NCBI GenBank assembly: GCA_964434115.1
Contig: CAYSSX010000001.1
Span: 165,855 to 229,854 of the forward strand
Reading direction: 5' to 3'
Length of the DNA: 64,000 nt
From: an uncultured bacterium
GTDB taxonomy: Bacteria > Omnitrophota > Omnitrophia > Omnitrophales > Aquincolibacteriaceae
Shown here: positions 1,480-10,885 of the stretch, piece by piece
Position numbering within the stretch: the first letter of the stretch is position 1
How the letters are laid out: the number at the start of each line of letters is the position of its first letter
The notes under the pieces: generated by a model
Seen by the model: only the letters and a program-made list of their open reading frames with translations
What the model was told of the DNA's origin: nothing
Databases searched by the model: none
Program-made: the position numbers and the translations under genes

Positions 1480-2709
1480 TCAAGCGGGATTCTGGGAAGA
1501 GGACCTCTGCACAGCGGCTGCCAAAAGCCCGGCAAAAAACCAGAAATGCAGCACCGACTGCGGATTGTGAAGCAAGGTGTCGCTGGCCGCAAAGACAAGG
1601 AAACTGAGCAGGCTCGCGATAAGGCCGGCCGCGAGGTTTCTGTCCGGAGTGCTGAGGTCGCGGGATTTTTTAAAAGCCCCGGTGATGAGAAAAACGAGAA
1701 AGGCGAGAAAGGAAACCAAACCTGGGATGCCGATCTCGGCGCCCATCTGCAAATAACCATTATGCGCGTAGTACTCTTTCACCCGCCAGCTCTTCTGCCG
1801 GTCGTACTTTTCATGCGCCTTGGTGTAGGTGTTGATTCCCGTTCCGGTCAAAGGTTTGGCCTGAATCACATTGACCGCCCGCTGCCAGAGGTCAAAGCGC
1901 TCGACAATGGATTGTTCCTTGCGGTTGATGTCCAGGTGAATCAAAACGTTTTTGGGAAGCATCAGGCACCCGATGCCTGCGGCCAGCACAAGGGCCAGCG
2001 CGATTTTCCACTTGCGGTACAAAAGCAGCGTTAAAAAACTTCCGCCCAGAAGGCCGAGCCATGCCCCGCGCGAGCGTGTGAGGTAGAGACAGAACAAACC
2101 TTCAAAGGCCAGAATGAAAAGCAGGATTTGATAACGGGATTTTTTGACCGCGTTAAAGGCCAGAGCAAGAACCACCGGAACCGTGAGCACCAGAAAGGCC
2201 GCGAGCAGACCGTAGGATTTAAAAGAGGAAGTGATCCTAAGTCCAGTGGAGGCATCCACGGCCCGGAAATGGCGGACAAAATCCCAGCCGGTCACGTATT
2301 GAAACAGGCCGTCCGCCACCACCAGGCCATAGGAACAAAGAAGGACTTTTTCCGTCAGGGTCCAGGATTTCAAGTCCCGCGGAATCCGGGCCACTAAAAT
2401 GAACAGGGCCACCTGCTGAAGCACTTTGAAAATGCCGCGGAAACTTTGTTTGGGAAACTCCGACCAGGTGTACGAAAGCAGGACAATGCCCGTGTAGACC
2501 GCGAGCGCCGCCAAAGCAGGACGGTCAAGACCCGTGAAAGGGTTTCTTTTTTCCAGAACCAGCAAGAGGACGGTCACAAGAAGGGCCGCGACGGTGGCGA
2601 TTTCAATCAGCGCGGTGGAAAACGTAAAGGCCGCGAGAAGGGCGAGGAGCGAGTAAAGAAGAATTTTTTCCCATGGAAGCTGGCGGAAATTCAGCGGCGC
2701 TTTAAGCAT
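1480..2709 (-). CDS. O-antigen ligase/polymerase family (Wzy_C) polytopic membrane protein
   Basis: 409 aa with many transmembrane segments. It has the LTRSRGAWLGLLGG motif (S-R-x-A/G-W) and a large periplasmic loop, typical of the Wzy_C/WaaL family. Confidence 0.75.
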   Translation of the reverse strand: MLKAPLNFRQLPWEKILLYSLLALLAAFTFSTALIEIATVAALLVTVLLLVLEKRNPFTGLDRPALAALAVYTGIVLLSYTWSEFPKQSFRGIFKVLQQVALFILVARIPRDLKSWTLTEKVLLCSYGLVVADGLFQYVTGWDFVRHFRAVDASTGLRITSSFKSYGLLAAFLVLTVPVVLALAFNAVKKSRYQILLFILAFEGLFCLYLTRSRGAWLGLLGGSFLTLLLYRKWKIALALVLAAGIGCLMLPKNVLIHLDINRKEQSIVERFDLWQRAVNVIQAKPLTGTGINTYTKAHEKYDRQKSWRVKEYYAHNGYLQMGAEIGIPGLVSFLAFLVFLITGAFKKSRDLSTPDRNLAAGLIASLLSFLVFAASDTLLHNPQSVLHFWFFAGLLAAAVQRSSSQNPA

Positions 2710-2738: not shown

Positions 2739-4028
2739 TCAGGCCGGGATGATTTCAAAACGCCGTTCCTGAATGGAGCTTTCCAGGGCGGTCTGCGGGC
2801 CGGGCAGCGGGAGAACGAAACGCACTCCCTTGTCTTTCCAATGGCCGATTTTTTTCAGGATCTCGCGGGCGAAATTCCACGCGAAAATAACAATGATGTC
2901 CACAGGCTGTTTTTCCAGTTCACTGCTCGGGCGGATGGGAATCTTGACGCCCGGCGTCAGGTAGTTCTGTTTCAGCGGATTGTCGTCCACCACGTAATCA
3001 ATATCGTTCGCGGTCAAACCGTAGAAATTGAGGATGGTGCTGGCCTTGGCCGGCGCGCCGTAACCCGCGATTTTTTTACCCGCAGCCTTCTCGCGCGCGA
3101 TCATGGCGCGGAAATCGTCCCGGATGCCCATCACCCGCTTGGCGAAATCCTGGTAAACCGCGCCGCTCAGATAGCCGCCGTCTTTTTCCTTCCGGAGAAA
3201 ATGCTCCACGGATTCGTGAACCGGGCGGCCGCCTGTTTTCTTCTGCATAAAGACCCTGAGCGATCCGCCGTGCGACGGGACAAAATCAATGCGGAAAATC
3301 TCAAGCCCGAATTTTTCCACGACATATTTCAGGGAATGAACCGCGATATAGGAAAGATGCTCGTGATAAATCATGTCGAAGAGCAGTTCTTCCACCATGG
3401 TGACGAGATAAGGAAACTCAATGACAAAAAGACCCTTGTCGTCCAGAAGATCGGAGACATTGCGAAGCACGCTGTGGATGTCGTCGATGTGCGCGAACAC
3501 ATTGTTGCCGCTGATGGCGTGGGCCTTGCCGTGCTGGGCGATGATCGTTTTCACGCATTCGGCGTCAAAATAACGGTTGAGCGTGGGAAAGCCGTTTTTG
3601 TTGGCCTGCTCCGCGAGGTTTTTCGCGGGGTCCACGCCGACCGAACGCATCCCCTCTTTCATGTAGCAGGAAACAAGAAGCCCGTCGTTGCTGCCGATGT
3701 CCACCGCCAGCGGAGAGTCCACGCCCGCGATTTTTTCACGCACCGAATGGGCGTAAGCGGCAAAGTGGTCCCGGAAAGTCTGGGTCGTGGAGCTGACATA
3801 AAGGTAATGCGAGAACATCAGGTCAGGCGGCACCACATGCGAGAGCTGGACCAGGCCTGATTCCGGCGACCAGACAAGGCTCAGCGGGCACGTGAACTCC
3901 GGCTTGTCTTTGTCTTCGGGCCGGACATAGGAATTGGCCAAAGCCATGGTTCCGAGTTCGAGAAACGGTTTACCAAGCGGTGCGCCGGAGTAACGGCAGG
4001 CTGTTTTTTTATAAGGGTCTTGAGGCAT
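2739..4028 (-). CDS. SAM-dependent NDP-hexose C-methyltransferase-like protein (TylCIII/NovU family)
   Basis: 429 aa with an N-terminal Cys-containing putative zinc-binding region. A class I methyltransferase core (VDIGSNDGLL) is followed by a C-methyltransferase-type C-terminal domain (GYGAPAKASTILNFYGL). Confidence 0.7.
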   Translation of the reverse strand: MPQDPYKKTACRYSGAPLGKPFLELGTMALANSYVRPEDKDKPEFTCPLSLVWSPESGLVQLSHVVPPDLMFSHYLYVSSTTQTFRDHFAAYAHSVREKIAGVDSPLAVDIGSNDGLLVSCYMKEGMRSVGVDPAKNLAEQANKNGFPTLNRYFDAECVKTIIAQHGKAHAISGNNVFAHIDDIHSVLRNVSDLLDDKGLFVIEFPYLVTMVEELLFDMIYHEHLSYIAVHSLKYVVEKFGLEIFRIDFVPSHGGSLRVFMQKKTGGRPVHESVEHFLRKEKDGGYLSGAVYQDFAKRVMGIRDDFRAMIAREKAAGKKIAGYGAPAKASTILNFYGLTANDIDYVVDDNPLKQNYLTPGVKIPIRPSSELEKQPVDIIVIFAWNFAREILKKIGHWKDKGVRFVLPLPGPQTALESSIQERRFEIIPA

Positions 4029-4042
4029 GATTTTCCTCGGGG

Positions 4043-4816
4043 TTAAGCCGTGGGCATGGGGTTGACTGCGAAAATTTTTCCGTGGCGGATCACGACATCG
4101 CTTCCCGAAGCTACCGGAAAACGGTCTTCCACAATATCCATAATGACGGAGGCCACGAAATCAGGGCTCTGCTGCTTGTCCGCGTCCTTTTGTCCAAAAA
4201 GAGCGGCGCGCATTTCCGTGTTCATGCCGCCCGGGCAGATGTTCAGGCACTTCAGCGAAGTGTCTGAGTTTTCTTTGGCCACGCACTGCGTCAAAGCGGC
4301 CATGCCGTATTTGGAGGCGGAGTAAGCAAAGAGTTTGGGGACGCCCCGGATTCCAGCCATGGAAGAAATATTGAGAATGAGTCCGCCATTGCCCTGCTTC
4401 CGGAAAACGGGAATCAAGTGTTTGGTAAGGAGAAAAGCGGAAGTGAGGTTGGAACGGATCATCTGCTCAAAATCCTTCAGCGGAGTCAAAGCCACGGGCT
4501 GAAGCGTTCCCCCGATGCCGGCATTGTTGATCAGGATATCGACGGGCTTCCCCTGGCGTGCCATTTTCTGGCAGAACGCCTTCACCTGGGCCTCCGAGGT
4601 CAAATCCACCTGGGCCATGGTCAGGCTTCCCGCGGAAGACGTTTTGCCCCCCGCCCGCGCCGGCATTTTCCCGGCGCCGGGAAAATCCGGAAGCGCTTTC
4701 CAGTTTTTGCGTGTCCGGCTGACGCCGATGACCTCGTCGCCGGCCGCGGCAAATTTCTCAGCCAAACTCCGGCCCAGGCCTCGGGAGGCGCCTGTGATAA
4801 TGACCCTGCGGTTCAT
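4043..4816 (-). CDS. SDR family oxidoreductase
   Basis: ITGASRGLGRSLA Rossmann motif, a YSASK catalytic motif and NNAG; 257 aa. Confidence 0.85.
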   Translation of the reverse strand: MNRRVIITGASRGLGRSLAEKFAAAGDEVIGVSRTRKNWKALPDFPGAGKMPARAGGKTSSAGSLTMAQVDLTSEAQVKAFCQKMARQGKPVDILINNAGIGGTLQPVALTPLKDFEQMIRSNLTSAFLLTKHLIPVFRKQGNGGLILNISSMAGIRGVPKLFAYSASKYGMAALTQCVAKENSDTSLKCLNICPGGMNTEMRAALFGQKDADKQQSPDFVASVIMDIVEDRFPVASGSDVVIRHGKIFAVNPMPTA

Positions 4817-4852: not shown

Positions 4853-5269
4853 CTATTTCACGGAAGCGGTTTTCAATGCCGGATTAATATAGCCTTCCAC
4901 CACTTTATAGGCAATCGTGTCTTCCTCGTATTTTCCGCTTTCGCGTTCCAGCGTGGTGAACGCGAGAAACACCGAGTCCTGCGTGAATTTCTGGGCGTGC
5001 GCGATGTACGCCGGTGTTTCCACGATATCGCCGGGCTTGACCTGAAGCACCTGGCGCTTCGAGGTATCGCGGGTGTCCACGGAGTGGCTTTCATAGGCGC
5101 CGCTGATAAGGTAAATGTACTGGTGGTCTTTTTTGTGGTAGTGGTTCGCGCGCACCGTTCCGGCCTTGGAGGTAATCATGGCCACATGCCCCAAGTGACC
5201 TTCGAACAAATTGTGAATTTCCCCGCGGGCGTCGACGAATGCGGGATCAATGTGGCGGATGTTTTCCAT
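4853..5269 (-). CDS. Cupin-fold protein, probably sugar 3,4-ketoisomerase-like (FdtA/WxcM C-terminal domain family)
   Basis: 138 aa. It has an NHYHKKDHQY His cluster and the cupin size and context typical of dTDP-sugar isomerases in deoxysugar clusters. This is a family-level guess only. Confidence 0.45.
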   Translation of the reverse strand: MENIRHIDPAFVDARGEIHNLFEGHLGHVAMITSKAGTVRANHYHKKDHQYIYLISGAYESHSVDTRDTSKRQVLQVKPGDIVETPAYIAHAQKFTQDSVFLAFTTLERESGKYEEDTIAYKVVEGYINPALKTASVK

Positions 5270-5317: not shown

Positions 5318-6679
5318 TTAACGGTCAGAGGCTTCAGAAAACCAGCGGACCGTACGGCGGACCCCTTCGGAAAGCGAAATCTTGGGTTCAAAGCCGGTGA
5401 TGCGCTGTAACTTTGAAATGTCCGGGCAGCGGCGTTTCGGGTCAGAGCTGGCGTAAACCGCGTGCGGCGGATCAATGCTGACCACTTCCACCTTGTGCGG
5501 CATGGCGTCGCGGACCAAATAGGCCAGATCGCGCACCGAGATTTCCGGTGACGGGTTGCCGATGTTGAAGTACTCCCCGCTTTCTTTCGCGAAAAGCACC
5601 CGGAAAATGGCTTCAACAGCGTCGCTGATATAACAAAAGGAGCGGGTGTTGCGTCCGTCCCCGTGAATCGGCAGCGGCTCTTTGCGGAGCGCGTGTTCAA
5701 TGAAGTTCGGCAGCACGCGGTAATCATCCGGCCGGATTCCGGGGCCGTAGACATTGAACGGGCGGACGATCTTGACCGGCACGTTGAAGGTTCTCCAGAA
5801 CGCCAGGCACATGGTTTCGCCGAAACGCTTGGACTCGTCATAGCAGGAGCGCGGCCCGGTAATCGATACATTGCCGTAATACTCTTCGTTCGTGGGCACG
5901 TGTTTGGGGTCCGGGTCGCCGTACACTTCGCTGGAACTGGTGAAAAGAAATCCCGAGACGTTCTTTTTATAAGCCAGCTCAAGCATGTGGCGTGTTCCCA
6001 CGGTGCCCACATCCATGGTCTCAATCGGGTATTTCGTGTAGTACGCGGGCGAAGCGATGCCTGCCGCGTGAATGATGTAATCCACCTCTTCCGGGGTTTC
6101 AAAGGGGTTGATCACATTGTGGCGGTGAAAAATAAGATTCTTGTCGGAGATCACGCGCTGTTCGTAGCCGGTCACAAAGTTGTCGAGAAGCAAGGCCCGG
6201 GTTTTTTCTTCCAGAACCGCCTCATTCAAATATTTCAGAAGATGCACCATGTAGCGGCCGAGAAAGCCGTAGGCGCCGGTGATCAAAAAGGTCTTTCCCG
6301 CGAAAAACTTATGGTACGGCCGCAGGGCCTCGGCCAGGTTTTGAATGTCTTCCCGGATGACTTTGGATTCCGTGAGCGCGGCCACATTGGCGCGTTTGCC
6401 CGCGGGAGCCTTGGTTTTGCGCGCGGGTTCTGCCGGCGCTTTCACAGCCGCGTTCTTTTTGGACTTTGAAGAGGCGGCCTGAACCGCGCCTTCTTCCGTG
6501 TCGAGTCCCTGGGTAATGTAGGTCTTGATCAGCTGCTGATAGCCCATGTCCCCTTTTTGTCCAGCCACGCCGCGGAGTTCTTCGATCATGCCCTTGGGCA
6601 TACGGATCGAGATCAGCTTGCTGTCCTTTTCCTGGGAAGCGGTCTTGTCTTTTTCTGAGGCTTTTGTTTTAGAGGGCAT
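5318..6679 (-). CDS. NAD-dependent epimerase/dehydratase (UXS/ArnA-decarboxylase-like extended SDR) with an N-terminal BrnA-like ribbon-helix-helix domain and a Lys/Ala/Pro-rich linker
   Basis: The track ORF starts at 6745. The likely start is the ATG at 6679, preceded by GAGGAA. The N-terminus (KLISIRMPKGMIEELRGVAGQKGDMGYQQLIKTYITQGL) matches the BrnA/CopG-type antitoxin ribbon-helix-helix motif (ISIRL...GKGYQT.IN). A KAPAEPARKTKAPAGKR linker follows. The catalytic part has TGAYGFLG, YDESKR and the extended-SDR C-terminal domain. Confidence 0.75.
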   Translation of the reverse strand: MPSKTKASEKDKTASQEKDSKLISIRMPKGMIEELRGVAGQKGDMGYQQLIKTYITQGLDTEEGAVQAASSKSKKNAAVKAPAEPARKTKAPAGKRANVAALTESKVIREDIQNLAEALRPYHKFFAGKTFLITGAYGFLGRYMVHLLKYLNEAVLEEKTRALLLDNFVTGYEQRVISDKNLIFHRHNVINPFETPEEVDYIIHAAGIASPAYYTKYPIETMDVGTVGTRHMLELAYKKNVSGFLFTSSSEVYGDPDPKHVPTNEEYYGNVSITGPRSCYDESKRFGETMCLAFWRTFNVPVKIVRPFNVYGPGIRPDDYRVLPNFIEHALRKEPLPIHGDGRNTRSFCYISDAVEAIFRVLFAKESGEYFNIGNPSPEISVRDLAYLVRDAMPHKVEVVSIDPPHAVYASSDPKRRCPDISKLQRITGFEPKISLSEGVRRTVRWFSEASDR

Positions 6680-6705
6680 AGTTCCTCGCTTTGACGTTAG
6701 GTCGT

Positions 6706-6745
6706 GTATATACGTTCTGAAGGCGTAGTAAAATTGTATATACAA
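6706..6745. promoter_or_regulatory. Two palindromic operator-like sites (GTATATAC at 6706-6713; TTGTATATACAA at 6734-6745) in the divergent intergenic region
   Basis: Perfect 8-bp and 12-bp palindromes share the GTATATAC core. Their centres are 30 bp apart, about three helical turns, and they lie between the divergent epimerase (minus) and GT2 (plus) genes. Confidence 0.5.
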
Positions 6746-6796
6746 AATTCAGGGGTGTCAAATATCTTTTTTCCGCGCCCCCGCCTGTCATGCGGC

Positions 6797-6831: not shown

Positions 6832-7617
6832 ATGACTTTTCAAAGCGCCCCCGAGCCGGACATCAGTTTTATTATTCCCGTTTACAACGAGGAACAGAAC
6901 ATCGTCGGAGTCTTCCGCGATCTGTTCGATGTGATTGCCAAAAACCCGTCCTGGAAAACCGAAGTCATCGTGATCGAGGACGGCAGTAAGGACCGCACCC
7001 GGGAAGTGGTCCTCAACCTGGCCAAGCAATACCCCACGGCCCGCCTTATCATGCACTTGAAAAACCAAGGGTACAATCAGTCCATGCGCGACGGCATCGC
7101 CGAGGCCCGCGGGCGTTACTTGATGTACATCGGGGCGGACGAGGAATTTGACTGTTCCGAAGTCCCATCTTTCGTGAACCCCTTGCTGGAAGAAGGCGAA
7201 GGGCATGCCGATGTGGTGCTGGGCGTGCGCTGGCAGCGGAATGCCTACAAACTCCACCGCTTTTTTATTTCCGTGATTTATATCTTTCTTCTGAACGCCA
7301 TGTTCAAGCTGAGGGTCAATGATTACAACTGGTCCCAGGCCTGGAGCCGTGACCTGATCCGTTCCATTGATCTGGAATCCCGCTCCCTTTTTATGCTTCC
7401 CGAAATGATTATCAAGGCCTTTGACCTTGGCTTTAAGGTTAAAGAGGTTCCTTCCAATCACCGCGGCCGCCGCTGGGGCAAATCATCCCTCAATATGAAA
7501 ATTATGGGGTTCGCGCTCTGGGAATCGATCCGGTTTTACTTTGCCCGGCAGTCGAAAAATTATACGCCCGGCCGTCGCCCCCGCGAAACGCCTGCTAAGT
7601 CTCCGGTAGCCGGCTAG
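6832..7617 (+). CDS. GT2 polyprenol-phosphate glycosyltransferase (GtrB/ArnC/DPM1-like) with C-terminal transmembrane helices
   Basis: ISFIIPVYNEE, EDGSKD and GADEEFD motifs (DXD-type). The C-terminal hydrophobic segment FFISVIYIFLLNAMF is typical of bactoprenol-phosphate sugar synthases. The track ORF begins at 6790, but that ATG lies inside the predicted -35 region, so the start is set at 6832. Confidence 0.8.
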   Translation: MTFQSAPEPDISFIIPVYNEEQNIVGVFRDLFDVIAKNPSWKTEVIVIEDGSKDRTREVVLNLAKQYPTARLIMHLKNQGYNQSMRDGIAEARGRYLMYIGADEEFDCSEVPSFVNPLLEEGEGHADVVLGVRWQRNAYKLHRFFISVIYIFLLNAMFKLRVNDYNWSQAWSRDLIRSIDLESRSLFMLPEMIIKAFDLGFKVKEVPSNHRGRRWGKSSLNMKIMGFALWESIRFYFARQSKNYTPGRRPRETPAKSPVAG

Positions 7618-9290
7618 TTTTTCAGCGCCGGTTTCCGGTACAGTACAAAATCCCCTTCTGAAAAAAGTTTCTCATACCCTGCCCCGTCAAAATCCGCCAG
7701 TGTGTCTTCAAAGCTCTTGGTCTTAGGTTCCCAAAAGGTTTTATCGAAGATCAGATAATCCGCCTTCAGCTTCCCGGCCTGTTCGAGTTTGGTGGGCGTT
7801 GGGTTGTATTCCAGCTGGTACACGGTTTTTCTCCGTGACACTTGCGGGATCCAATTGTTGTGCGTCAGGACCGAAGCGTCGGGAGGAATCTGTGAAAGCG
7901 CGGCGCGCTTCGCGGGCGTGACCACGCTCCCGTTTTTTAAGCTGTTGTAAAAATAGTAATACTCGGAGGGGCCGGACCTGAGCAGGCTTGAGAGGACCAA
8001 GGCCGCGGCCAGCCACGAAGTGCGGCGCTTGAGCGCGGGAAATTTTTCAAGCACCACCCCGCAGCCATAGATGGCCGAGATGAAAACGAATGGCGAAAGT
8101 CCCGCTGTGTAGTGATAGCCGAAAGAACGGGTCACCGGGTTATCGGAAAGCAGGTTCTGGATCAGCACCGGTGCGGTCAAGAGCAGGGTCGGAAAGTGGA
8201 AAAAAGACAGGAAGAGCAGCGGTGAAAAAAGTTTTGCCGTGTAAGACAAGGAATCCGGACTCAAAAAACGCAGGAAGGCCCCGGCCGGATTCTGGGCCGC
8301 GCTTTTGTAAAAACCGGAATACAGATAGGCGTGGCCGCTGATTTCCGGGATCACCCAATGGGTCATTAGAAAAAGGTAAACCACGGAAAACAAAACCAGG
8401 GCTGAGCCCAGCACCTTCTGCTTTTCAAAGAAGACCAGCGTCAGCCCGAAAAAGAAAAGGATGCCGGAGAAATTCTCTTTGGCGGAAAGCGCCACGGCCA
8501 GCGCCGCGGCAAAAGCCGGCCAGCGGCGTTCTTTCATAAAAAGGAAGGCCAGAATGAGGACCGGCTGAGCCATCACTTCCGGATGAAAATCCTCGTGGAG
8601 AGCGCTGCGTTCCGGGTAAAAAAGAAAAAAGGCAAAAGCAAAGCAAAGGGCCAGACGCGGATCTTTTAAATGTTTCACCGTCAGGCTGTAGAGCGCCGGA
8701 ATGCAGAGCGCCAAGGCCGCGGCCTGAAGGAAAAGCAAAGTCCGGGGATCCTGCCACAGGGCATAAAAAGGCGTGAGCAAAAGCAGGAACGGGCTGAAGT
8801 GGTCCCCCAGCAGGCAGGTGTTGTCCTTCAGAGAAGAAAGCAGAAGGTTTCCGTGCACGGTGTTCCAAAGCGCCTGGTCAAAAATACCCAGGTCAAAGGC
8901 GCGGGTCTGCAGGCCTTCATGCCGGAACCATCCGATGATCATAGCCGAGGCCGCGTAGCAGAGCGTCAGAAGCAGGACTCCGCGCCGGGCGGTCTTTTCG
9001 GTAAGGGCGTTCCAGAAGCGCACGAGGTGAAGTTCCGGAAAAATCCGGGGTTTCCAAAAACGGGCGAAGATCAGGAGAAGAAAAAAAACGAGCGTTCCCG
9101 CGCGCACAATATTTCCGTAACGGTTTTTGGATTTCAGCGGGTGCATCCATCCCAGCTGAACAAGCGGAATCAGGTTAGTCAAAAGCGCGGCGGTGAGAAA
9201 CGCCAAAGCTGTTAAAAGCAGAAAATTCAAAAAGGCCTTTTCGCGGGCCGGGGTCATTGGGAAACCTCCACGGGCGGAGCCTTTCGCCAA
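7614..9290 (-). CDS. DUF2079-family polytopic membrane protein (GT-C-like putative glycosyltransferase)
   Basis: 558 aa. It has the RAFDLGIFDQALWN...HG motif characteristic of DUF2079 and more than 10 transmembrane segments. Its stop overlaps the convergent GT2 stop by 4 bp. Confidence 0.65.
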   Translation of the reverse strand: MAKGSARGGFPMTPAREKAFLNFLLLTALAFLTAALLTNLIPLVQLGWMHPLKSKNRYGNIVRAGTLVFFLLLIFARFWKPRIFPELHLVRFWNALTEKTARRGVLLLTLCYAASAMIIGWFRHEGLQTRAFDLGIFDQALWNTVHGNLLLSSLKDNTCLLGDHFSPFLLLLTPFYALWQDPRTLLFLQAAALALCIPALYSLTVKHLKDPRLALCFAFAFFLFYPERSALHEDFHPEVMAQPVLILAFLFMKERRWPAFAAALAVALSAKENFSGILFFFGLTLVFFEKQKVLGSALVLFSVVYLFLMTHWVIPEISGHAYLYSGFYKSAAQNPAGAFLRFLSPDSLSYTAKLFSPLLFLSFFHFPTLLLTAPVLIQNLLSDNPVTRSFGYHYTAGLSPFVFISAIYGCGVVLEKFPALKRRTSWLAAALVLSSLLRSGPSEYYYFYNSLKNGSVVTPAKRAALSQIPPDASVLTHNNWIPQVSRRKTVYQLEYNPTPTKLEQAGKLKADYLIFDKTFWEPKTKSFEDTLADFDGAGYEKLFSEGDFVLYRKPALKN

Positions 9291-10885
9291 AGTGTAAAAC
9301 CACCCTGGTCCTGGATTTTTGTGTACCCCGTCTGAGTCAGCTCGGCATACGCCTGGGGTTCCTTGTCTCCGAGAAACATCCGGTCAAGGGCCGTGTATTC
9401 TGAGGCCAAGGCCTTGGCGGATCCGCCTTCCTTGGGGTGATGATTTTCAAAAATATGCAGCTCTTTGCGGTTCACGGCCTGCGGCGCCAGAAACTCGTGG
9501 GTGCGCAGCGACGCGGCCGGCGGAAGCGCGGCGAGCTCTCTTTGCACCCAGCGGGTATGCGCCGAGATTTTCGAGGCATGTTCTCCCAGAACATAAAACT
9601 CCGGGACGCCGGAAAAAAGAACGGCCGCGCCGATCAGGACATAGGGCGCGGATCTCCGTGACCTGACACGCTTCCAGCCAGCCAGCGCGGAGATGACGAC
9701 ATAGGGCGTGAGCAGCGCCGTGTATTGAAAAAAAATCGAACGGGTGGCGTCATTCCGGGAAATCAGATTCTGGGCCAGCATGGGCAGGGTCAGTAAAAAA
9801 GCCGCGGGGCTGAGAAAACTGAGAAACGCGAAAGGAGCGAAGATTTTAACAAGATAGGAAACCGAAGGCCCTGAAAGGAGCTGCTGAAAAAGGGCGCCTG
9901 TCCCCTCCTTTTTCCAGGCCAGAAAATTGCCGCCCAGATAAAAGTAATCCGCGCCGGAGAAATGCGGAATCCAGATCTTTATGGCGGCCGTGAGATACGC
10001 GGCTGAAAAAAACATCCAGAAAATGCCGAAAAGCTTTTTCTTTTGAAAAGCGGCCGCGTAAAACCCCGCCCCAAAAAGCACGAGCGCGGTATTTTCTTTT
10101 GCCGCGAGCGCGGTGAGCATGCAGAGACCGGCGAAAAAGAGTTTCCCGCTTTCCAGAAAATAAAAGGCCCAGAGCAGGAGCGGAAAGGCTAAAACTTCCG
10201 GGTGAAAATCAAAACGCACGGAATTTCGGAGCGGCAGATAAAGCGCCAGAGCCAGAACAAACAAGGCCGCTGTTTTTGCGTCCTGGCGGCGGGCCAGAAA
10301 ATAAACCGGAAACACGGCGGACGCGGCGCTGACGGCCTGAAGAAGCAAAAGGCAGCGCGGGTCGGGCCAAAGCGCGTAAGGCAGCGCCAGCACAGCCAGG
10401 AGCGGGCTGAAATGATCTCCCAGCAGGCAGATGCCGCCTTTGATCGAGGAGTAAAGAAAGTCGCCGTGAAGTGTGTTCCAGACCGCTTGAGCGAAAATCG
10501 CCAGGTCAAAACTGCTGTGCAAAGCGTCATGCCTGACGCAGGAAGAACTTGTCCAAAGCGCGGCCAGGAATAAAAAAAGGCCGCAGGTGAACAGGCCCGG
10601 ATGCTTTAAAACCCAGGCCGCGGCCCGGTAAGCAAGTGAGGGCTTCGCGTCCCCGCCCTTGGTTTGGACCGGACGAAGCCAGGCCCACAAAAGCGTGAAC
10701 ACGGGAAAGGCCGTGATGAAAACGCGGTGAATCCAGGGCTTTTGCTGAATGATTTCGTGCAGCGATCCCTGAAAAAGAAACCCGGCCCCGCTCAGGCTGA
10801 GAAAAAGACTGAGCCCGGCGGCGGCATCAAAAAGCCGGGACTCGGCGCTTCCCGTGCCGGCGGTGTTAGTCTGGGAGTTAACCAT
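9254..10885 (-). CDS. DUF2079-family polytopic membrane protein (paralog of 7614..9290)
   Basis: 543 aa. It has SSFDLAIFAQAVWNTLHG...CLLGDHFSP and the same architecture as the adjacent paralog. This is a tandem duplication. Confidence 0.65.
   Translation of the reverse strand: MVNSQTNTAGTGSAESRLFDAAAGLSLFLSLSGAGFLFQGSLHEIIQQKPWIHRVFITAFPVFTLLWAWLRPVQTKGGDAKPSLAYRAAAWVLKHPGLFTCGLFLFLAALWTSSSCVRHDALHSSFDLAIFAQAVWNTLHGDFLYSSIKGGICLLGDHFSPLLAVLALPYALWPDPRCLLLLQAVSAASAVFPVYFLARRQDAKTAALFVLALALYLPLRNSVRFDFHPEVLAFPLLLWAFYFLESGKLFFAGLCMLTALAAKENTALVLFGAGFYAAAFQKKKLFGIFWMFFSAAYLTAAIKIWIPHFSGADYFYLGGNFLAWKKEGTGALFQQLLSGPSVSYLVKIFAPFAFLSFLSPAAFLLTLPMLAQNLISRNDATRSIFFQYTALLTPYVVISALAGWKRVRSRRSAPYVLIGAAVLFSGVPEFYVLGEHASKISAHTRWVQRELAALPPAASLRTHEFLAPQAVNRKELHIFENHHPKEGGSAKALASEYTALDRMFLGDKEPQAYAELTQTGYTKIQDQGGFTLWRKAPPVEVSQ

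What the first reader, a model, noticed from the sequence alone, without database searches (positions are those of the whole stretch)
5318..6745. BrnA-type ribbon-helix-helix DNA-binding motif fused through a histone-like K/A/P linker to an SDR sugar epimerase/dehydratase
The residues just after the Shine-Dalgarno-supported start at 6679 (KLISIRMPKGMIEELRGVAGQKGDMGYQQLIKTYITQGL) match the BrnA/CopG antitoxin C-terminal ribbon-helix-helix signature. That signature in free-standing BrnA antitoxins is ISIRLD...L.W.K..GKGYQT.IN..LR.YV. An AKP-rich basic linker follows, then a complete UXS/ArnA-decarboxylase-like extended SDR. A DNA-binding antitoxin module covalently attached to a nucleotide-sugar enzyme would be a one-component system. 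Here the enzyme domain would sense an NDP-sugar or NAD and gate repressor activity. No BrnT toxin gene is nearby, so this is not a toxin-antitoxin pair. The two GTATATAC-core palindromes immediately upstream are plausible cognate operators.
Basis: partly seen in the sequence, partly recalled or inferred. Interest (0 to 1): 0.7.

Follow-up and report, generated by a model that had tools for sequence, protein, structure and literature searches.

The report
Sugar enzyme fused to DNA-binding repressor
A UDP-xylose-synthase-like sugar enzyme of Omnitrophota bacteria carries at its front end a small DNA-binding module borrowed from a toxin-antitoxin system. Two strictly conserved palindromes sit on its own promoter, so the enzyme most likely switches off its own sugar-synthesis operon.

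Summary
The minus-strand ORF 5318-6679 (453 aa, ATG with a GAGGA Shine-Dalgarno) has four parts: a basic tail, a 40-residue ribbon-helix-helix (RHH) of the BrnA/CopG-antitoxin type, a disordered linker, and a complete UXS-like extended SDR.

- **Fusion.** It is kept in at least 54 protein clusters, almost all Omnitrophota, under purifying selection (dN/dS about 0.15).
- **Palindromes.** GTATATAC occurs only twice in the 64 kb window, both times in this gene's promoter. All 15 orthologous fusion loci carry TTGACA, then (T)GTATATAC(A) over the -10, then a second copy before the start codon. The surrounding DNA is scrambled.
- **Spacing.** Copy spacing falls at 21-22, 30-32 or 41-43 bp, which are whole helical turns.
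- **Control.** Six orthologous cassettes whose SDR lacks the RHH have no such motif.
- **Relatives.** Free-standing relatives of the RHH, several beside BrnT-like toxins, carry the same core in their promoters.

Best reading: a self-repressing enzyme-regulator analogous to PutA, domesticated from a BrnA antitoxin. It controls an operon of SDR, cupin, ketoreductase and C-methyltransferase.

Not shown: DNA binding itself and ligand gating by the enzyme domain. The "histone-like" linker is not conserved. This is a new variant of a known kind.

The parts
5318..6679 (-). CDS of the RHH-SDR fusion protein (453 aa plus stop codon)
   Evidence: ORF list and sequence. An identical 453-aa product is in public gene calls (P0001). 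At least 54 full-length orthologous clusters exist.
6620..6679 (-). N-terminal basic tail (residues 1-20), variable in sequence and always net positive in orthologues
   Evidence: Alignment A1. Tail net charge is +1 to +9 in the 52 orthologues scored. That it acts as a DNA-contacting arm is inferred.
6503..6619 (-). Ribbon-helix-helix domain (residues 21-59). The predicted beta-strand is KLISIRM (6599-6619). I23, S24, R26, L35, A39, Y47, Q48, I51 and K52 are invariant in the 54 fusion sequences of A1/A2.
   Evidence: Pfam PF12441 E 2.3e-5. Conservation. hhalign to BrnA 94% and to Arc 85%. dN/dS about 0.15.
6368..6502 (-). Disordered linker (residues 60-104), K/A/P-rich in this genome only
   Evidence: AF2 pLDDT is below 50 over residues 58-95. 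Composition and length are not conserved.
5321..6367 (-). UXS-like extended SDR (residues 105-453). It has GxxGxxG (G135-G141), S249-S250-E251, Y280-K284 and R416/R417.
   Evidence: Pfam Epimerase E 3e-48. Human UXS1 E 4e-59, with aligned catalytic motifs. These residues are invariant in 120 sequences. hUXS1 residue roles come from PMC3438964.
6683..6687 (-). Shine-Dalgarno GAGGA, 4 nt upstream of the ATG
   Evidence: Sequence. Purine-rich SD-like stretches precede the start in the orthologous loci.
6756..6761 (-). -35 hexamer TTGACA
   Evidence: Promoter scan, 11 of 12 matches. TTGACA lies 10-12 nt upstream of the first palindrome in 14 of 15 orthologous loci.
6733..6738 (-). -10 hexamer TACAAT with a 17-nt spacer. 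Its first three bases lie inside operator 1.
6734..6745 (.). Operator 1: TTGTATATACAA (core GTATATAC at 6736-6743), overlapping the spacer and the -10
   Evidence: It is present at the same place in all 15 orthologous fusion loci.
6705..6714 (.). Operator 2: cGTATATACa (core at 6706-6713), about +14 to +21 of the predicted transcript and 30 bp centre-to-centre from operator 1
   Evidence: A second copy lies 21-43 bp downstream of operator 1 in every fusion locus.
4853..5269 (-). Cupin gene, second gene of the conserved cassette
   Evidence: Pfam Cupin_2. Syntenic in all fusion and short-form loci.
4043..4816 (-). Classical SDR (adh_short), a putative ketoreductase and third gene of the cassette
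   Evidence: Synteny.
2739..4028 (-). NDP-sugar C-methyltransferase (Methyltransf_13/14), fourth gene of the cassette
   Evidence: Synteny.

Best explanation
The gene encodes a bifunctional enzyme-repressor. [quoted passage not shown]

**Proposed mechanism (inferred)**
- Two chains pair their RHH segments into one DNA-reading dimer.
- One dimer sits on each of two identical palindromes, (T)GTATATAC(A).
- Operator 1 overlaps the spacer and -10 of the gene's own sigma-70 promoter. Operator 2 lies in the early transcribed region, a whole number of helical turns away.
- The SDR bodies probably bridge the two bound dimers. Together they occlude RNA polymerase and repress the four-gene cassette: RHH-SDR, cupin, ketoreductase, C-methyltransferase. 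The cassette most likely makes a C-methyl-branched sugar nucleotide.

**Shown by computation**
- The domain architecture, its conservation and purifying selection.
- An intact UXS active-site signature.
- Conservation, position and phasing of the operators.
- Co-occurrence of operators with the RHH.

**Inferred only**
- Physical binding, repression rather than activation, and bridging by the SDR.
- Whether the sugar-nucleotide or NAD(H) state of the enzyme modulates binding remains open.
For: 1. **RHH identity.** PF12441 E 2.3e-5. hhalign probability 94% to a BrnA that partners a 100-bit BrnT, and 85% to Arc. An exhaustive HMMER search gives 789 hits. The nearest free-standing ones (E 1e-14 to 1e-17) pass the PF12441 threshold. 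One of them follows a BrnT-like gene in L009.
2. **Fusion conserved and translated.** 54 full-length clusters at 63-85% identity. The RHH segment has dN/dS about 0.15 with dS about 1.8.
3. **Enzyme intact.** GxxGxxG, S249/S250/E251, Y280/K284 and R416/R417 are invariant in 120 sequences and align with hUXS1 T118/S119/E120, Y147/K151 and R277.
4. **Operators in the window.** GTATATAC occurs twice in 64 kb, both in this promoter, against 0.05 expected. The promoter is TTGACA-17-TACAAT.
5. **Operators in orthologues.** All 15 orthologous loci, found by protein alone, have TTGACA or a near match, then the core 10-12 nt later, then a second core (three in L013) before the ATG. The flanks are unalignable. 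Only one further copy occurs in about 160 kb of these loci.
6. **Phasing.** Spacings are 21, 22, 22 / 30-32 (twelve loci) / 41, 41, 43, 43, 43. Rayleigh R is 0.88 at 10.5 bp with phase 0.1 bp.
7. **Control.** Six orthologous cassettes with an RHH-less SDR have no GTATATAC in 5.7-11 kb each.
8. **No other regulator in the cassette.** The cassette sits in unrelated neighbourhoods. The RHH is its only DNA-binding domain. No GntR-type gene lies within 10 kb in the two fusion loci inspected (L121, L122).
9. **Same core at relatives' promoters.**
   - L088: BrnT/BrnA.
   - L041 and L042: BrnT/DUF4258-like toxin plus CopG_antitoxin-like antitoxin.
   - L009.
   - L124, found without reference to DNA: CGTATATACG over its promoter.
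Against: - There is no direct binding evidence.
- The window protein is below the Pfam gathering score for any RHH family.
- AlphaFold monomer models do not show a confident RHH. The RHH region scores pLDDT 50-59 in the full-length model. The isolated segment folds as one long helix with pTM 0.33. A dimer could not be modelled.
- The fusions form essentially one clade. The RHH/operator co-occurrence is therefore close to a single evolutionary event plus long maintenance, and the spacing statistics treat related genomes as independent.
- The DNA pattern is not specific to this system. Of 80 metagenome loci with TTGACA-N10-12-GTATATAC-N12-38-GTATATAC, only about 4-7 encode the RHH. Others lie upstream of TetR, AbrB-type or RHH_1-type regulators, or are simple repeats. 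AT-rich palindromes over a -10 are thus used by several regulator families.
- Part of operator 1's conservation could be promoter function.
- Two relatives (L123, L126) lack an exact core.
Confidence: 0.7

Rival explanations
1. Ligand-gated one-component switch. This is the architecture above, but DNA binding is controlled by the catalytic domain's occupancy (UDP-GlcA, UDP-4-keto-pentose, UDP-Xyl or NAD+/NADH). One route would be a change in the SDR dimer-tetramer state that bridges the two operators. It extends the best explanation rather than excluding it.
For: - The catalytic site is fully conserved, so the domain still binds NAD and a UDP-sugar.
- Operators 21-43 bp apart and in helical phase need bridging through something larger than RHH-RHH contacts.
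- There is precedent in PutA, whose RHH-enzyme fusion switches with substrate (PMC5293562).
Against: No computation here addresses ligand dependence. Simple negative autoregulation, in which enzyme level sets its own synthesis, needs no ligand and fits all the data. The long variable linker (27-66 aa) is a poor conduit for allostery.
Confidence: 0.3
2. The palindromes are operators of a different, unlinked regulator (for example GntR/HutC-type, TetR or AbrB-type). The RHH would then serve another purpose, such as oligomerisation or nucleoid tethering.
For: GT-N-TA-N-AC is the classic core of GntR/HutC operators (own knowledge). The same two-palindrome promoter pattern occurs upstream of TetR and AbrB-type antitoxin genes in metagenomes.
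Against: - The palindromes co-occur perfectly with the RHH: 15 of 15 fusion loci against 0 of 6 RHH-less loci.
- The cassette moves between unrelated neighbourhoods with its promoter, and has no other DNA-binding gene attached.
- Free-standing relatives of this RHH carry the same core at their own promoters.
Confidence: 0.12
3. Residual antitoxin. The RHH module still neutralises a BrnT-like toxin encoded elsewhere, or is a decaying remnant of a toxin-antitoxin insertion with no present function.
For: The nearest free-standing relatives are antitoxins next to BrnT/DUF4258-like toxins.
Against: - No BrnT-like gene lies in the 64 kb window or next to any fusion locus.
- Only the RHH part of the BrnA profile is retained (profile positions 39-78).
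- The segment is under strong purifying selection across a deep clade, so it is not decaying.
Confidence: 0.04
4. The repeats act only as promoter or RNA elements (a -10-like sequence, or a 5'-UTR structure), without any protein operator role.
For: Operator 1 overlaps the -10. Operator 2 is transcribed.
Against: - Operator 2 is not at a promoter position, yet it is identical to operator 1 in all loci.
- An 8-bp AT-rich palindrome with no loop is not a stable hairpin.
- There is no Rfam match.
- Short-form cassettes have promoters without the motif.
- Spacing in whole helical turns is a DNA-face property.
Confidence: 0.03

Closest known systems
PutA (trifunctional proline utilization A of E. 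coli and Salmonella)
   Same: An N-terminal RHH domain is covalently fused to a working metabolic enzyme that represses its own regulon. This is the paradigm 'trigger enzyme' (PMC5293562).
   Different: - The catalytic domains are unrelated: PRODH/P5CDH flavoenzyme against NAD-dependent extended SDR.
- There is no detectable sequence relation between the RHH modules; Pfam gave no PutA-type hit.
- PutA binds several GTTGCA sites (own knowledge) and switches by membrane association. Here there are two identical 8-10-bp palindromes in helical phase, and the switch, if any, is unknown.
BrnA antitoxin of the BrnT/BrnA type II toxin-antitoxin system (Pfam PF14384 / PF12441)
   Same: The ISIR...GYQxLIK ribbon-helix-helix is homologous. 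BrnTA autoregulates by binding its own promoter (PMC5086665). BrnA-type operons found here carry the same GTATATAC core.
   Different: There is no toxin partner, and the N-terminal half of the BrnA profile is missing. The module is fused to a 350-aa enzyme and controls a sugar-biosynthesis operon.
Human UXS1 and the E. coli ArnA C-terminal domain (UDP-glucuronate decarboxylases, extended SDR)
   Same: UXS1 is the best solved match (E 4e-59). The catalytic S/T-Y-K triad and the UXS-specific Ser/Glu/Arg are shared.
   Different: No known UXS or ArnA carries a DNA-binding domain. This one sits in a cassette with a cupin, a ketoreductase and a C-methyltransferase. The product is therefore probably a branched pentose or deoxy-sugar rather than UDP-xylose itself. 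No NCBIfam equivalog threshold is reached.
Arc, MetJ, CopG and NikR (RHH repressors)
   Same: Short beta-strand-helix-helix dimers read short symmetric sites and bind cooperatively as higher oligomers. The profile match to Arc spans the strand and both helices. NikR also joins an RHH to a ligand-binding domain and binds two half-sites about two turns apart (own knowledge).
   Different: In Arc, MetJ and CopG, neighbouring dimers touch directly at 8-11 bp spacing. Here the sites are 2, 3 or 4 turns apart, so bridging through the enzyme domain is implied.
Rex (wHTH plus Rossmann NAD(H) sensor), BirA and NadR (enzyme-repressors)
   Same: A DNA-binding domain is joined to a nucleotide-binding or catalytic domain, so that metabolism feeds back on transcription.
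   Different: The DNA-binding fold differs (winged helix or HTH against RHH), and so does the chemistry. The analogy is functional only.

Membership tests
Ribbon-helix-helix, BrnA/CopG-antitoxin type (Pfam PF12441 / PF14384) | Profile match at or above the curated gathering score | tested here: not met
   For the window protein, PF12441 scores 25.5 bits against a cutoff of 28 (E 2.3e-5). PF14384 gives no hit. NCBIfam BrnA scores 19.8 against 60. Seven orthologues carry a precomputed PF12441 hit.
Ribbon-helix-helix, BrnA/CopG-antitoxin type (Pfam PF12441 / PF14384) | Homology to accepted members through intermediate sequences or profiles | tested here: met
   The profile of 48 RHH segments finds free-standing proteins at E 1e-14 to 1e-17. 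Four of those tested (P0129, P0130, P0133, P0155) exceed the PF12441 cutoff. hhalign to a PF14384-positive BrnA gives probability 94%, E 9e-8.
Ribbon-helix-helix, BrnA/CopG-antitoxin type (Pfam PF12441 / PF14384) | Beta-strand / helix / helix topology forming an intertwined dimer | tested here: inconclusive
   The alignment to Arc covers the strand and both helices (probability 85%). The full-length AF2 model gives two helices at 29-42 and 46-60, but with pLDDT 50-59. The isolated segment folds as one helix.
Ribbon-helix-helix, BrnA/CopG-antitoxin type (Pfam PF12441 / PF14384) | Sequence-specific binding to repeated or palindromic operators in its own promoter | not testable with these tools
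   Only comparative support exists: conserved, phased palindromes in 15 of 15 fusion loci and 0 of 6 RHH-less loci.
Type II toxin-antitoxin system BrnT/BrnA | Adjacent BrnT (PF04365) toxin gene | tested here: not met
   tblastn of four BrnT-like toxins against the window gives E > 0.2. The neighbours are sugar-pathway genes.
Type II toxin-antitoxin system BrnT/BrnA | Small free-standing antitoxin with the N-terminal BrnA region | tested here: not met
   Only profile positions 39-78 of 79 are matched. The module is the N-terminus of a 453-aa enzyme.
UXS/ArnA-type UDP-glucuronate decarboxylase (extended SDR) | GxxGxxG NAD site and the S/T-Y-K catalytic triad | tested here: met
   G135/G138/G141, S249, Y280 and K284 are invariant in 120 homologues and align with hUXS1.
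UXS/ArnA-type UDP-glucuronate decarboxylase (extended SDR) | UXS-specific Ser119, Glu120 and Arg277 equivalents | tested here: met
   SSSEVYGDP aligns with STSEVYGDP, and DPKRRCPDI with DPQKRKPDI. Residue roles are from PMC3438964. The exact Arg equivalence (R416 or R417) is read from the alignment.
UXS/ArnA-type UDP-glucuronate decarboxylase (extended SDR) | Equivalog-level profile score or demonstrated activity | tested here: not met
   The best NCBIfam scores are far below their cutoffs: LegB 120 against 475, PRK11908 88 against 294. Activity is not testable here.
Trigger enzymes (PutA-like enzyme-repressors) | DNA-binding domain covalently joined to a catalytically competent enzyme, with operators at the enzyme's own operon | tested here: met
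   Architecture and active site. Operator-like sites.
Trigger enzymes (PutA-like enzyme-repressors) | Substrate- or cofactor-dependent switch between enzyme and regulator roles | not testable with these tools
   This needs binding assays with and without UDP-sugars and NAD(H).

The most novel reading that the evidence does not exclude
A BrnA antitoxin's RHH, together with its GTATATAC operator-promoter, was captured by a UXS-like enzyme in an ancestor of an Omnitrophota clade. The result would be a nucleotide-sugar- or NAD(H)-responsive repressor-enzyme. Ligand-dependent association of SDR dimers bridges two RHH dimers bound 2-4 helical turns apart. Flux through a C-methyl-sugar pathway would then set transcription of its own portable cassette. 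This would be the first RHH trigger enzyme outside PutA, and the first transcription factor built on an extended-SDR sugar-nucleotide enzyme.
Probability: 0.3. Interest if true: 0.75.

Novelty: new variant of a known kind. Interest (0 to 1): 0.6.

Why it matters
**Why the case is useful.** Enzyme-repressor fusions are rare and instructive. PutA, BirA and NadR show how metabolism can talk to transcription without a separate sensor. This case adds a second, independent RHH-enzyme fusion. Its DNA-binding part can be traced to a toxin-antitoxin module, which gives a concrete example of antitoxin domestication into ordinary gene regulation.

**Why it is easy to test.**
- The predicted operators are exact.
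- The mutations to make are obvious.
- RHH-less orthologues provide natural controls.
- There is a natural series of 2-, 3- and 4-turn operator spacings.

**Wider use.** The organisms are uncultured Omnitrophota, where almost no regulator-operator pair is known. The compact self-regulated promoter and operator unit could also serve as a portable part. Public records currently annotate these proteins only as 'NAD-dependent epimerase/dehydratase', so the regulatory half is invisible in databases.

Tried and rejected
- **AlphaFold2, full-length protein with 59 sequences.** The SDR is confident, but the RHH region scores pLDDT 50-59 and the linker is disordered. This is no proof of an RHH fold.
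- **AlphaFold2, isolated RHH profile.** The result is a single long helix with pTM 0.33. It is uninformative, so no fold search was run on it.
- **PDB sequence-profile search with the RHH profile.** Only a marginal Arc hit at E 0.7.
- **Word-indexed homologue search with the 46-aa profile.** It returned only 3 proteins. The exhaustive HMMER search was needed.
- **Unbiased DNA-pattern scan of metagenomes.** Most hits are not RHH-SDR: simple repeats and other regulators. I therefore considered, and kept as a rival, binding of the palindromes by a GntR/TetR/AbrB-type regulator. I rejected it as the main explanation because of the RHH/operator co-occurrence and the matching sites at BrnA-type promoters.
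- **Viral-contig scan for free-standing relatives.** One distant hit inside an operon, with no motif.
- **Rfam scan of the intergenic region.** No match.
- **Literature searches for an RHH-SDR or RHH-UXS fusion, and for BrnA operator sequences.** Nothing was found. The primary BrnTA paper is not held.
- **The 'histone-like linker' idea.** Rejected, because composition, charge and length are not conserved.
Full report
**What is in the sequence.** The minus strand carries an ORF ending at 5318. Its longest form starts at a TTG at 6745. The ATG at 6679 is preceded by GAGGA at 6683-6687. It yields a 453-aa product identical to a protein already called in public assemblies (P0001).

Pfam places an extended-SDR domain at residues 132-374 and beyond (Epimerase, E 3e-48). 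It also gives a single N-terminal match, residues 17-57, to the ribbon-helix-helix part (profile positions 39-78 of 79) of PF12441 CopG_antitoxin. That match has E 2.3e-5 and 25.5 bits, just under the gathering score of 28. NCBIfam's BrnA model matches at E 7e-4.

**Is the N-terminal module a real, conserved domain?** A homologue search returned at least 54 clusters of 425-475 aa. They cover 94-100% of the query at 63-85% identity, and almost all that carry a name are Omnitrophota MAGs. Behind them is a larger set of about 355-aa proteins that begin at the SDR.

In the alignment, the basic tail and the linker are free to vary. The segment KLISIRIPExxIxxLRxVAGxKGxxGYQQLIKxYIxxGL is nearly invariant. 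Codon comparison of this 40-residue segment gives a median dN/dS of 0.15 at dS about 1.8. For the window against L001, dN is 0.044 and dS is 0.60. It is therefore translated and under purifying selection.

A profile of the segment was searched exhaustively against 1.84 billion representatives and finds 789 proteins. The closest that are not fragments of the fusion are 95-170-aa proteins (E 1e-14 to 1e-17). Four of those tested pass the PF12441 threshold. One of them, P0155 in locus L009, lies directly after a BrnT-like gene.

hhalign of the profile against a textbook BrnA, which is PF14384-positive and lies downstream of a 100-bit BrnT in L088, gives probability 94%, E 9e-8. I accept the module as an RHH of the BrnA/CopG-antitoxin lineage.

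AlphaFold monomer models neither confirm nor contradict this. A dimer could not be modelled.

**The enzyme half.** The nearest solved structure is human UDP-xylose synthase, E 4e-59. dTDP-glucose 4,6-dehydratases are much further away.

The alignment pairs SSSEVYGDP with hUXS1 [16 protein letters not shown] with CYDEGKR, and DPKRRCPDI with DPQKRKPDI. These cover the SDR triad and the Ser/Glu/Arg that the hUXS1 structure paper identifies as specific to decarboxylases (PMC3438964). These residues and the GxxGxxG are invariant in 120 fusion and short-form homologues. The enzyme is therefore almost certainly active. No NCBIfam equivalog threshold is met, so the exact reaction is not assigned.

**Context.** The gene is the first of a co-directional run: cupin (4853-5269), classical SDR (4043-4816), NDP-sugar C-methyltransferase (2739-4028), then a Wzy_C protein. 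A GT2 glycosyltransferase gene diverges upstream, followed by two DUF2079 membrane proteins.

The four-gene core (SDR, cupin, adh_short, C-methyltransferase) is syntenic in every fusion locus where enough downstream sequence was recovered, and in every short-form locus. The flanking genes differ completely from genome to genome. The cassette is thus a portable unit, and the RHH is the only DNA-binding domain it carries.

**The palindromes.** GTATATAC occurs exactly twice in the 64 kb window, at 6706-6713 and 6736-6743. The chance expectation is 0.05.

The upstream copy, TTGTATATACAA, overlaps the spacer and the first three bases of the -10 of a near-consensus promoter, TTGACA-17-TACAAT. The downstream copy lies at about +14 to +21 of the predicted transcript.

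I then fetched loci by protein only, using the RHH profile against one genome per species. This gave 16 loci, 15 of which encode the fusion. All 15 have the same layout:
- TTGACA (TTGACG in one locus), then the core 10-12 nt later.
- A second exact core before the start codon (three cores in L013).
- Surrounding intergenic DNA that cannot be aligned.

Flanking bases extend the consensus to TGTATATACA. Outside these promoters, the roughly 160 kb of fusion loci hold one further copy. With synonymous sites near saturation, exact retention of two 8-mers in every genome means selection.

**Spacing.** Centre-to-centre distances in 20 loci are 21, 22, 22; then 30, 30, 31 (four times) and 32 (six times); then 41, 41, 43, 43, 43. 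Nothing lies in between.

The Rayleigh R is 0.88 at a 10.5-bp period, with a mean phase of 0.1 bp. None of 100,000 random draws reached this value. The loci are phylogenetically related, so the p-value is inflated. Even so, at least two independent changes of spacing class each moved the site by about one turn.

This is the signature of two proteins bound on one face of the helix and interacting. At 2-4 turns the interaction cannot be direct RHH-RHH contact, as in Arc or MetJ. The SDR bodies are the obvious bridge (inference).

**Linking the palindromes to the RHH.**
- *Control.* Six orthologous cassettes whose SDR lacks the RHH have no exact copy anywhere in 5.7-11 kb each, and no palindrome at the promoter. 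Two of these cluster near the fusions in a neighbour-joining tree.
- *Relatives found by protein homology, blind to the DNA.* L009 (BrnT-like gene plus RHH) has TGGTATATACAAT about 30 bp upstream of the operon. L124, a free-standing 81-aa RHH, has CGTATATACG over its promoter. L126 has only GTATATCT, and a viral-contig relative inside an operon has nothing.
- *Reverse search by DNA pattern in metagenomes.* It returned fusion loci (L037, L040, L052, L082, L091). It also returned three toxin-antitoxin operons whose antitoxin carries the same ISIRL...GYQxLI motif (L041, L042, L088).

That search also showed the limits of the argument. Most of the 80 loci were simple repeats, or promoters of unrelated regulators (TetR, AbrB-type and RHH_1-type antitoxins). 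An AT-rich palindrome across a -10 is therefore a common solution and not a private signature.

For that reason I keep 'another regulator binds here' as a live rival, at about 0.12.

**What I conclude.** The best-supported explanation is a self-repressing enzyme-regulator. RHH dimers formed by pairs of chains bind the two TGTATATACA boxes. The boxes are held in register by the enzyme bodies, and RNA polymerase is excluded from the cassette's own promoter.

In kind, this is what PutA does (PMC5293562). It is also what BrnTA complexes do at their own promoter (PMC5086665). The module appears to be a BrnA RHH that lost its toxin and its N-terminal half and was recruited, possibly along with its operator-promoter, to a sugar-nucleotide operon.

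Nothing here tests it. The 'histone-like' linker is a feature of this sub-clade only. In orthologues the K/A/P fraction runs from 0.12 to 0.53, net charge from -5 to +7, and length from 27 to 66 aa. Many carry an ETLxxIGTP motif instead.

**Novelty.** Literature searches found no description of an RHH-SDR or RHH-UXS fusion, nor of this operator. Public names for these proteins mention only the epimerase/dehydratase.

I classify it as a new variant of a known kind, the RHH-enzyme autorepressor or trigger enzyme. It is not categorically new. Interest is moderate to high because the prediction is sharp, the controls exist in nature, and the evolutionary origin from an antitoxin can be traced.

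Noticed in passing
L121 1-8848 and 14384-21419 (Omnitrophota HK-STAS-OMNI-5, the same genome as L010): The RHH-SDR cassette sits between two giant ORFs of 8920 aa and 5401 aa that have no Pfam hits. The branched sugar might decorate such giant surface proteins.
   Followed up: no
L003 5947-7189: The RHH-SDR reading frame is broken near residue 347: tblastn matches fall in two pieces, and the ORF ends at 7056. This is a frameshift, an assembly error or a pseudogene. Both operators are intact.
   Followed up: partly
L013, -98, -86 and -54 relative to the ATG at 5968: This locus has three GTATATAC copies, spaced 12 and 32 bp apart, instead of two.
   Followed up: partly
Linker of the orthologues (alignment A1, columns about 120-135): Many orthologues share an L(K/E)ETLxxIGTP motif in the otherwise variable linker. 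The window's own sub-clade lacks it. It could be a short interaction or hinge motif.
   Followed up: no
window 7614-9290 and 9254-10885 (minus strand); 6832-7617 (plus strand): Two tandem DUF2079 membrane-protein paralogues overlap by 37 nt. A GT2 glycosyltransferase gene diverges from the RHH-SDR promoter. The GT2 start is probably the ATG at 6832, not the one at 6790. The GT2/DUF2079 arrangement is shared only with the closest relatives, L001 and L002.
   Followed up: partly
L036, L071, L092, L068 (metagenome loci): VapB/MazE-type (AbrB fold), RHH_1-type and TetR-type regulator genes also sit behind promoters with two or three (A)TGTATATACA(T) boxes. The same palindrome is thus reused by unrelated repressor folds.
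   Followed up: partly
L041 180-842 and L042 5596-6588: Each locus has a two-gene module: a DUF4258/BrnT-like toxin followed by a 115-145-aa antitoxin with an ISIRL...GYQxLI RHH. Both genes score below the Pfam thresholds, so this is apparently an uncurated BrnTA-like subfamily.
   Followed up: partly
window 1480-2709 (minus strand): A Wzy_C/O-antigen-ligase-like gene follows the C-methyltransferase gene here and in L001 only. This suggests the sugar ends up in a surface polymer in this lineage.
   Followed up: no
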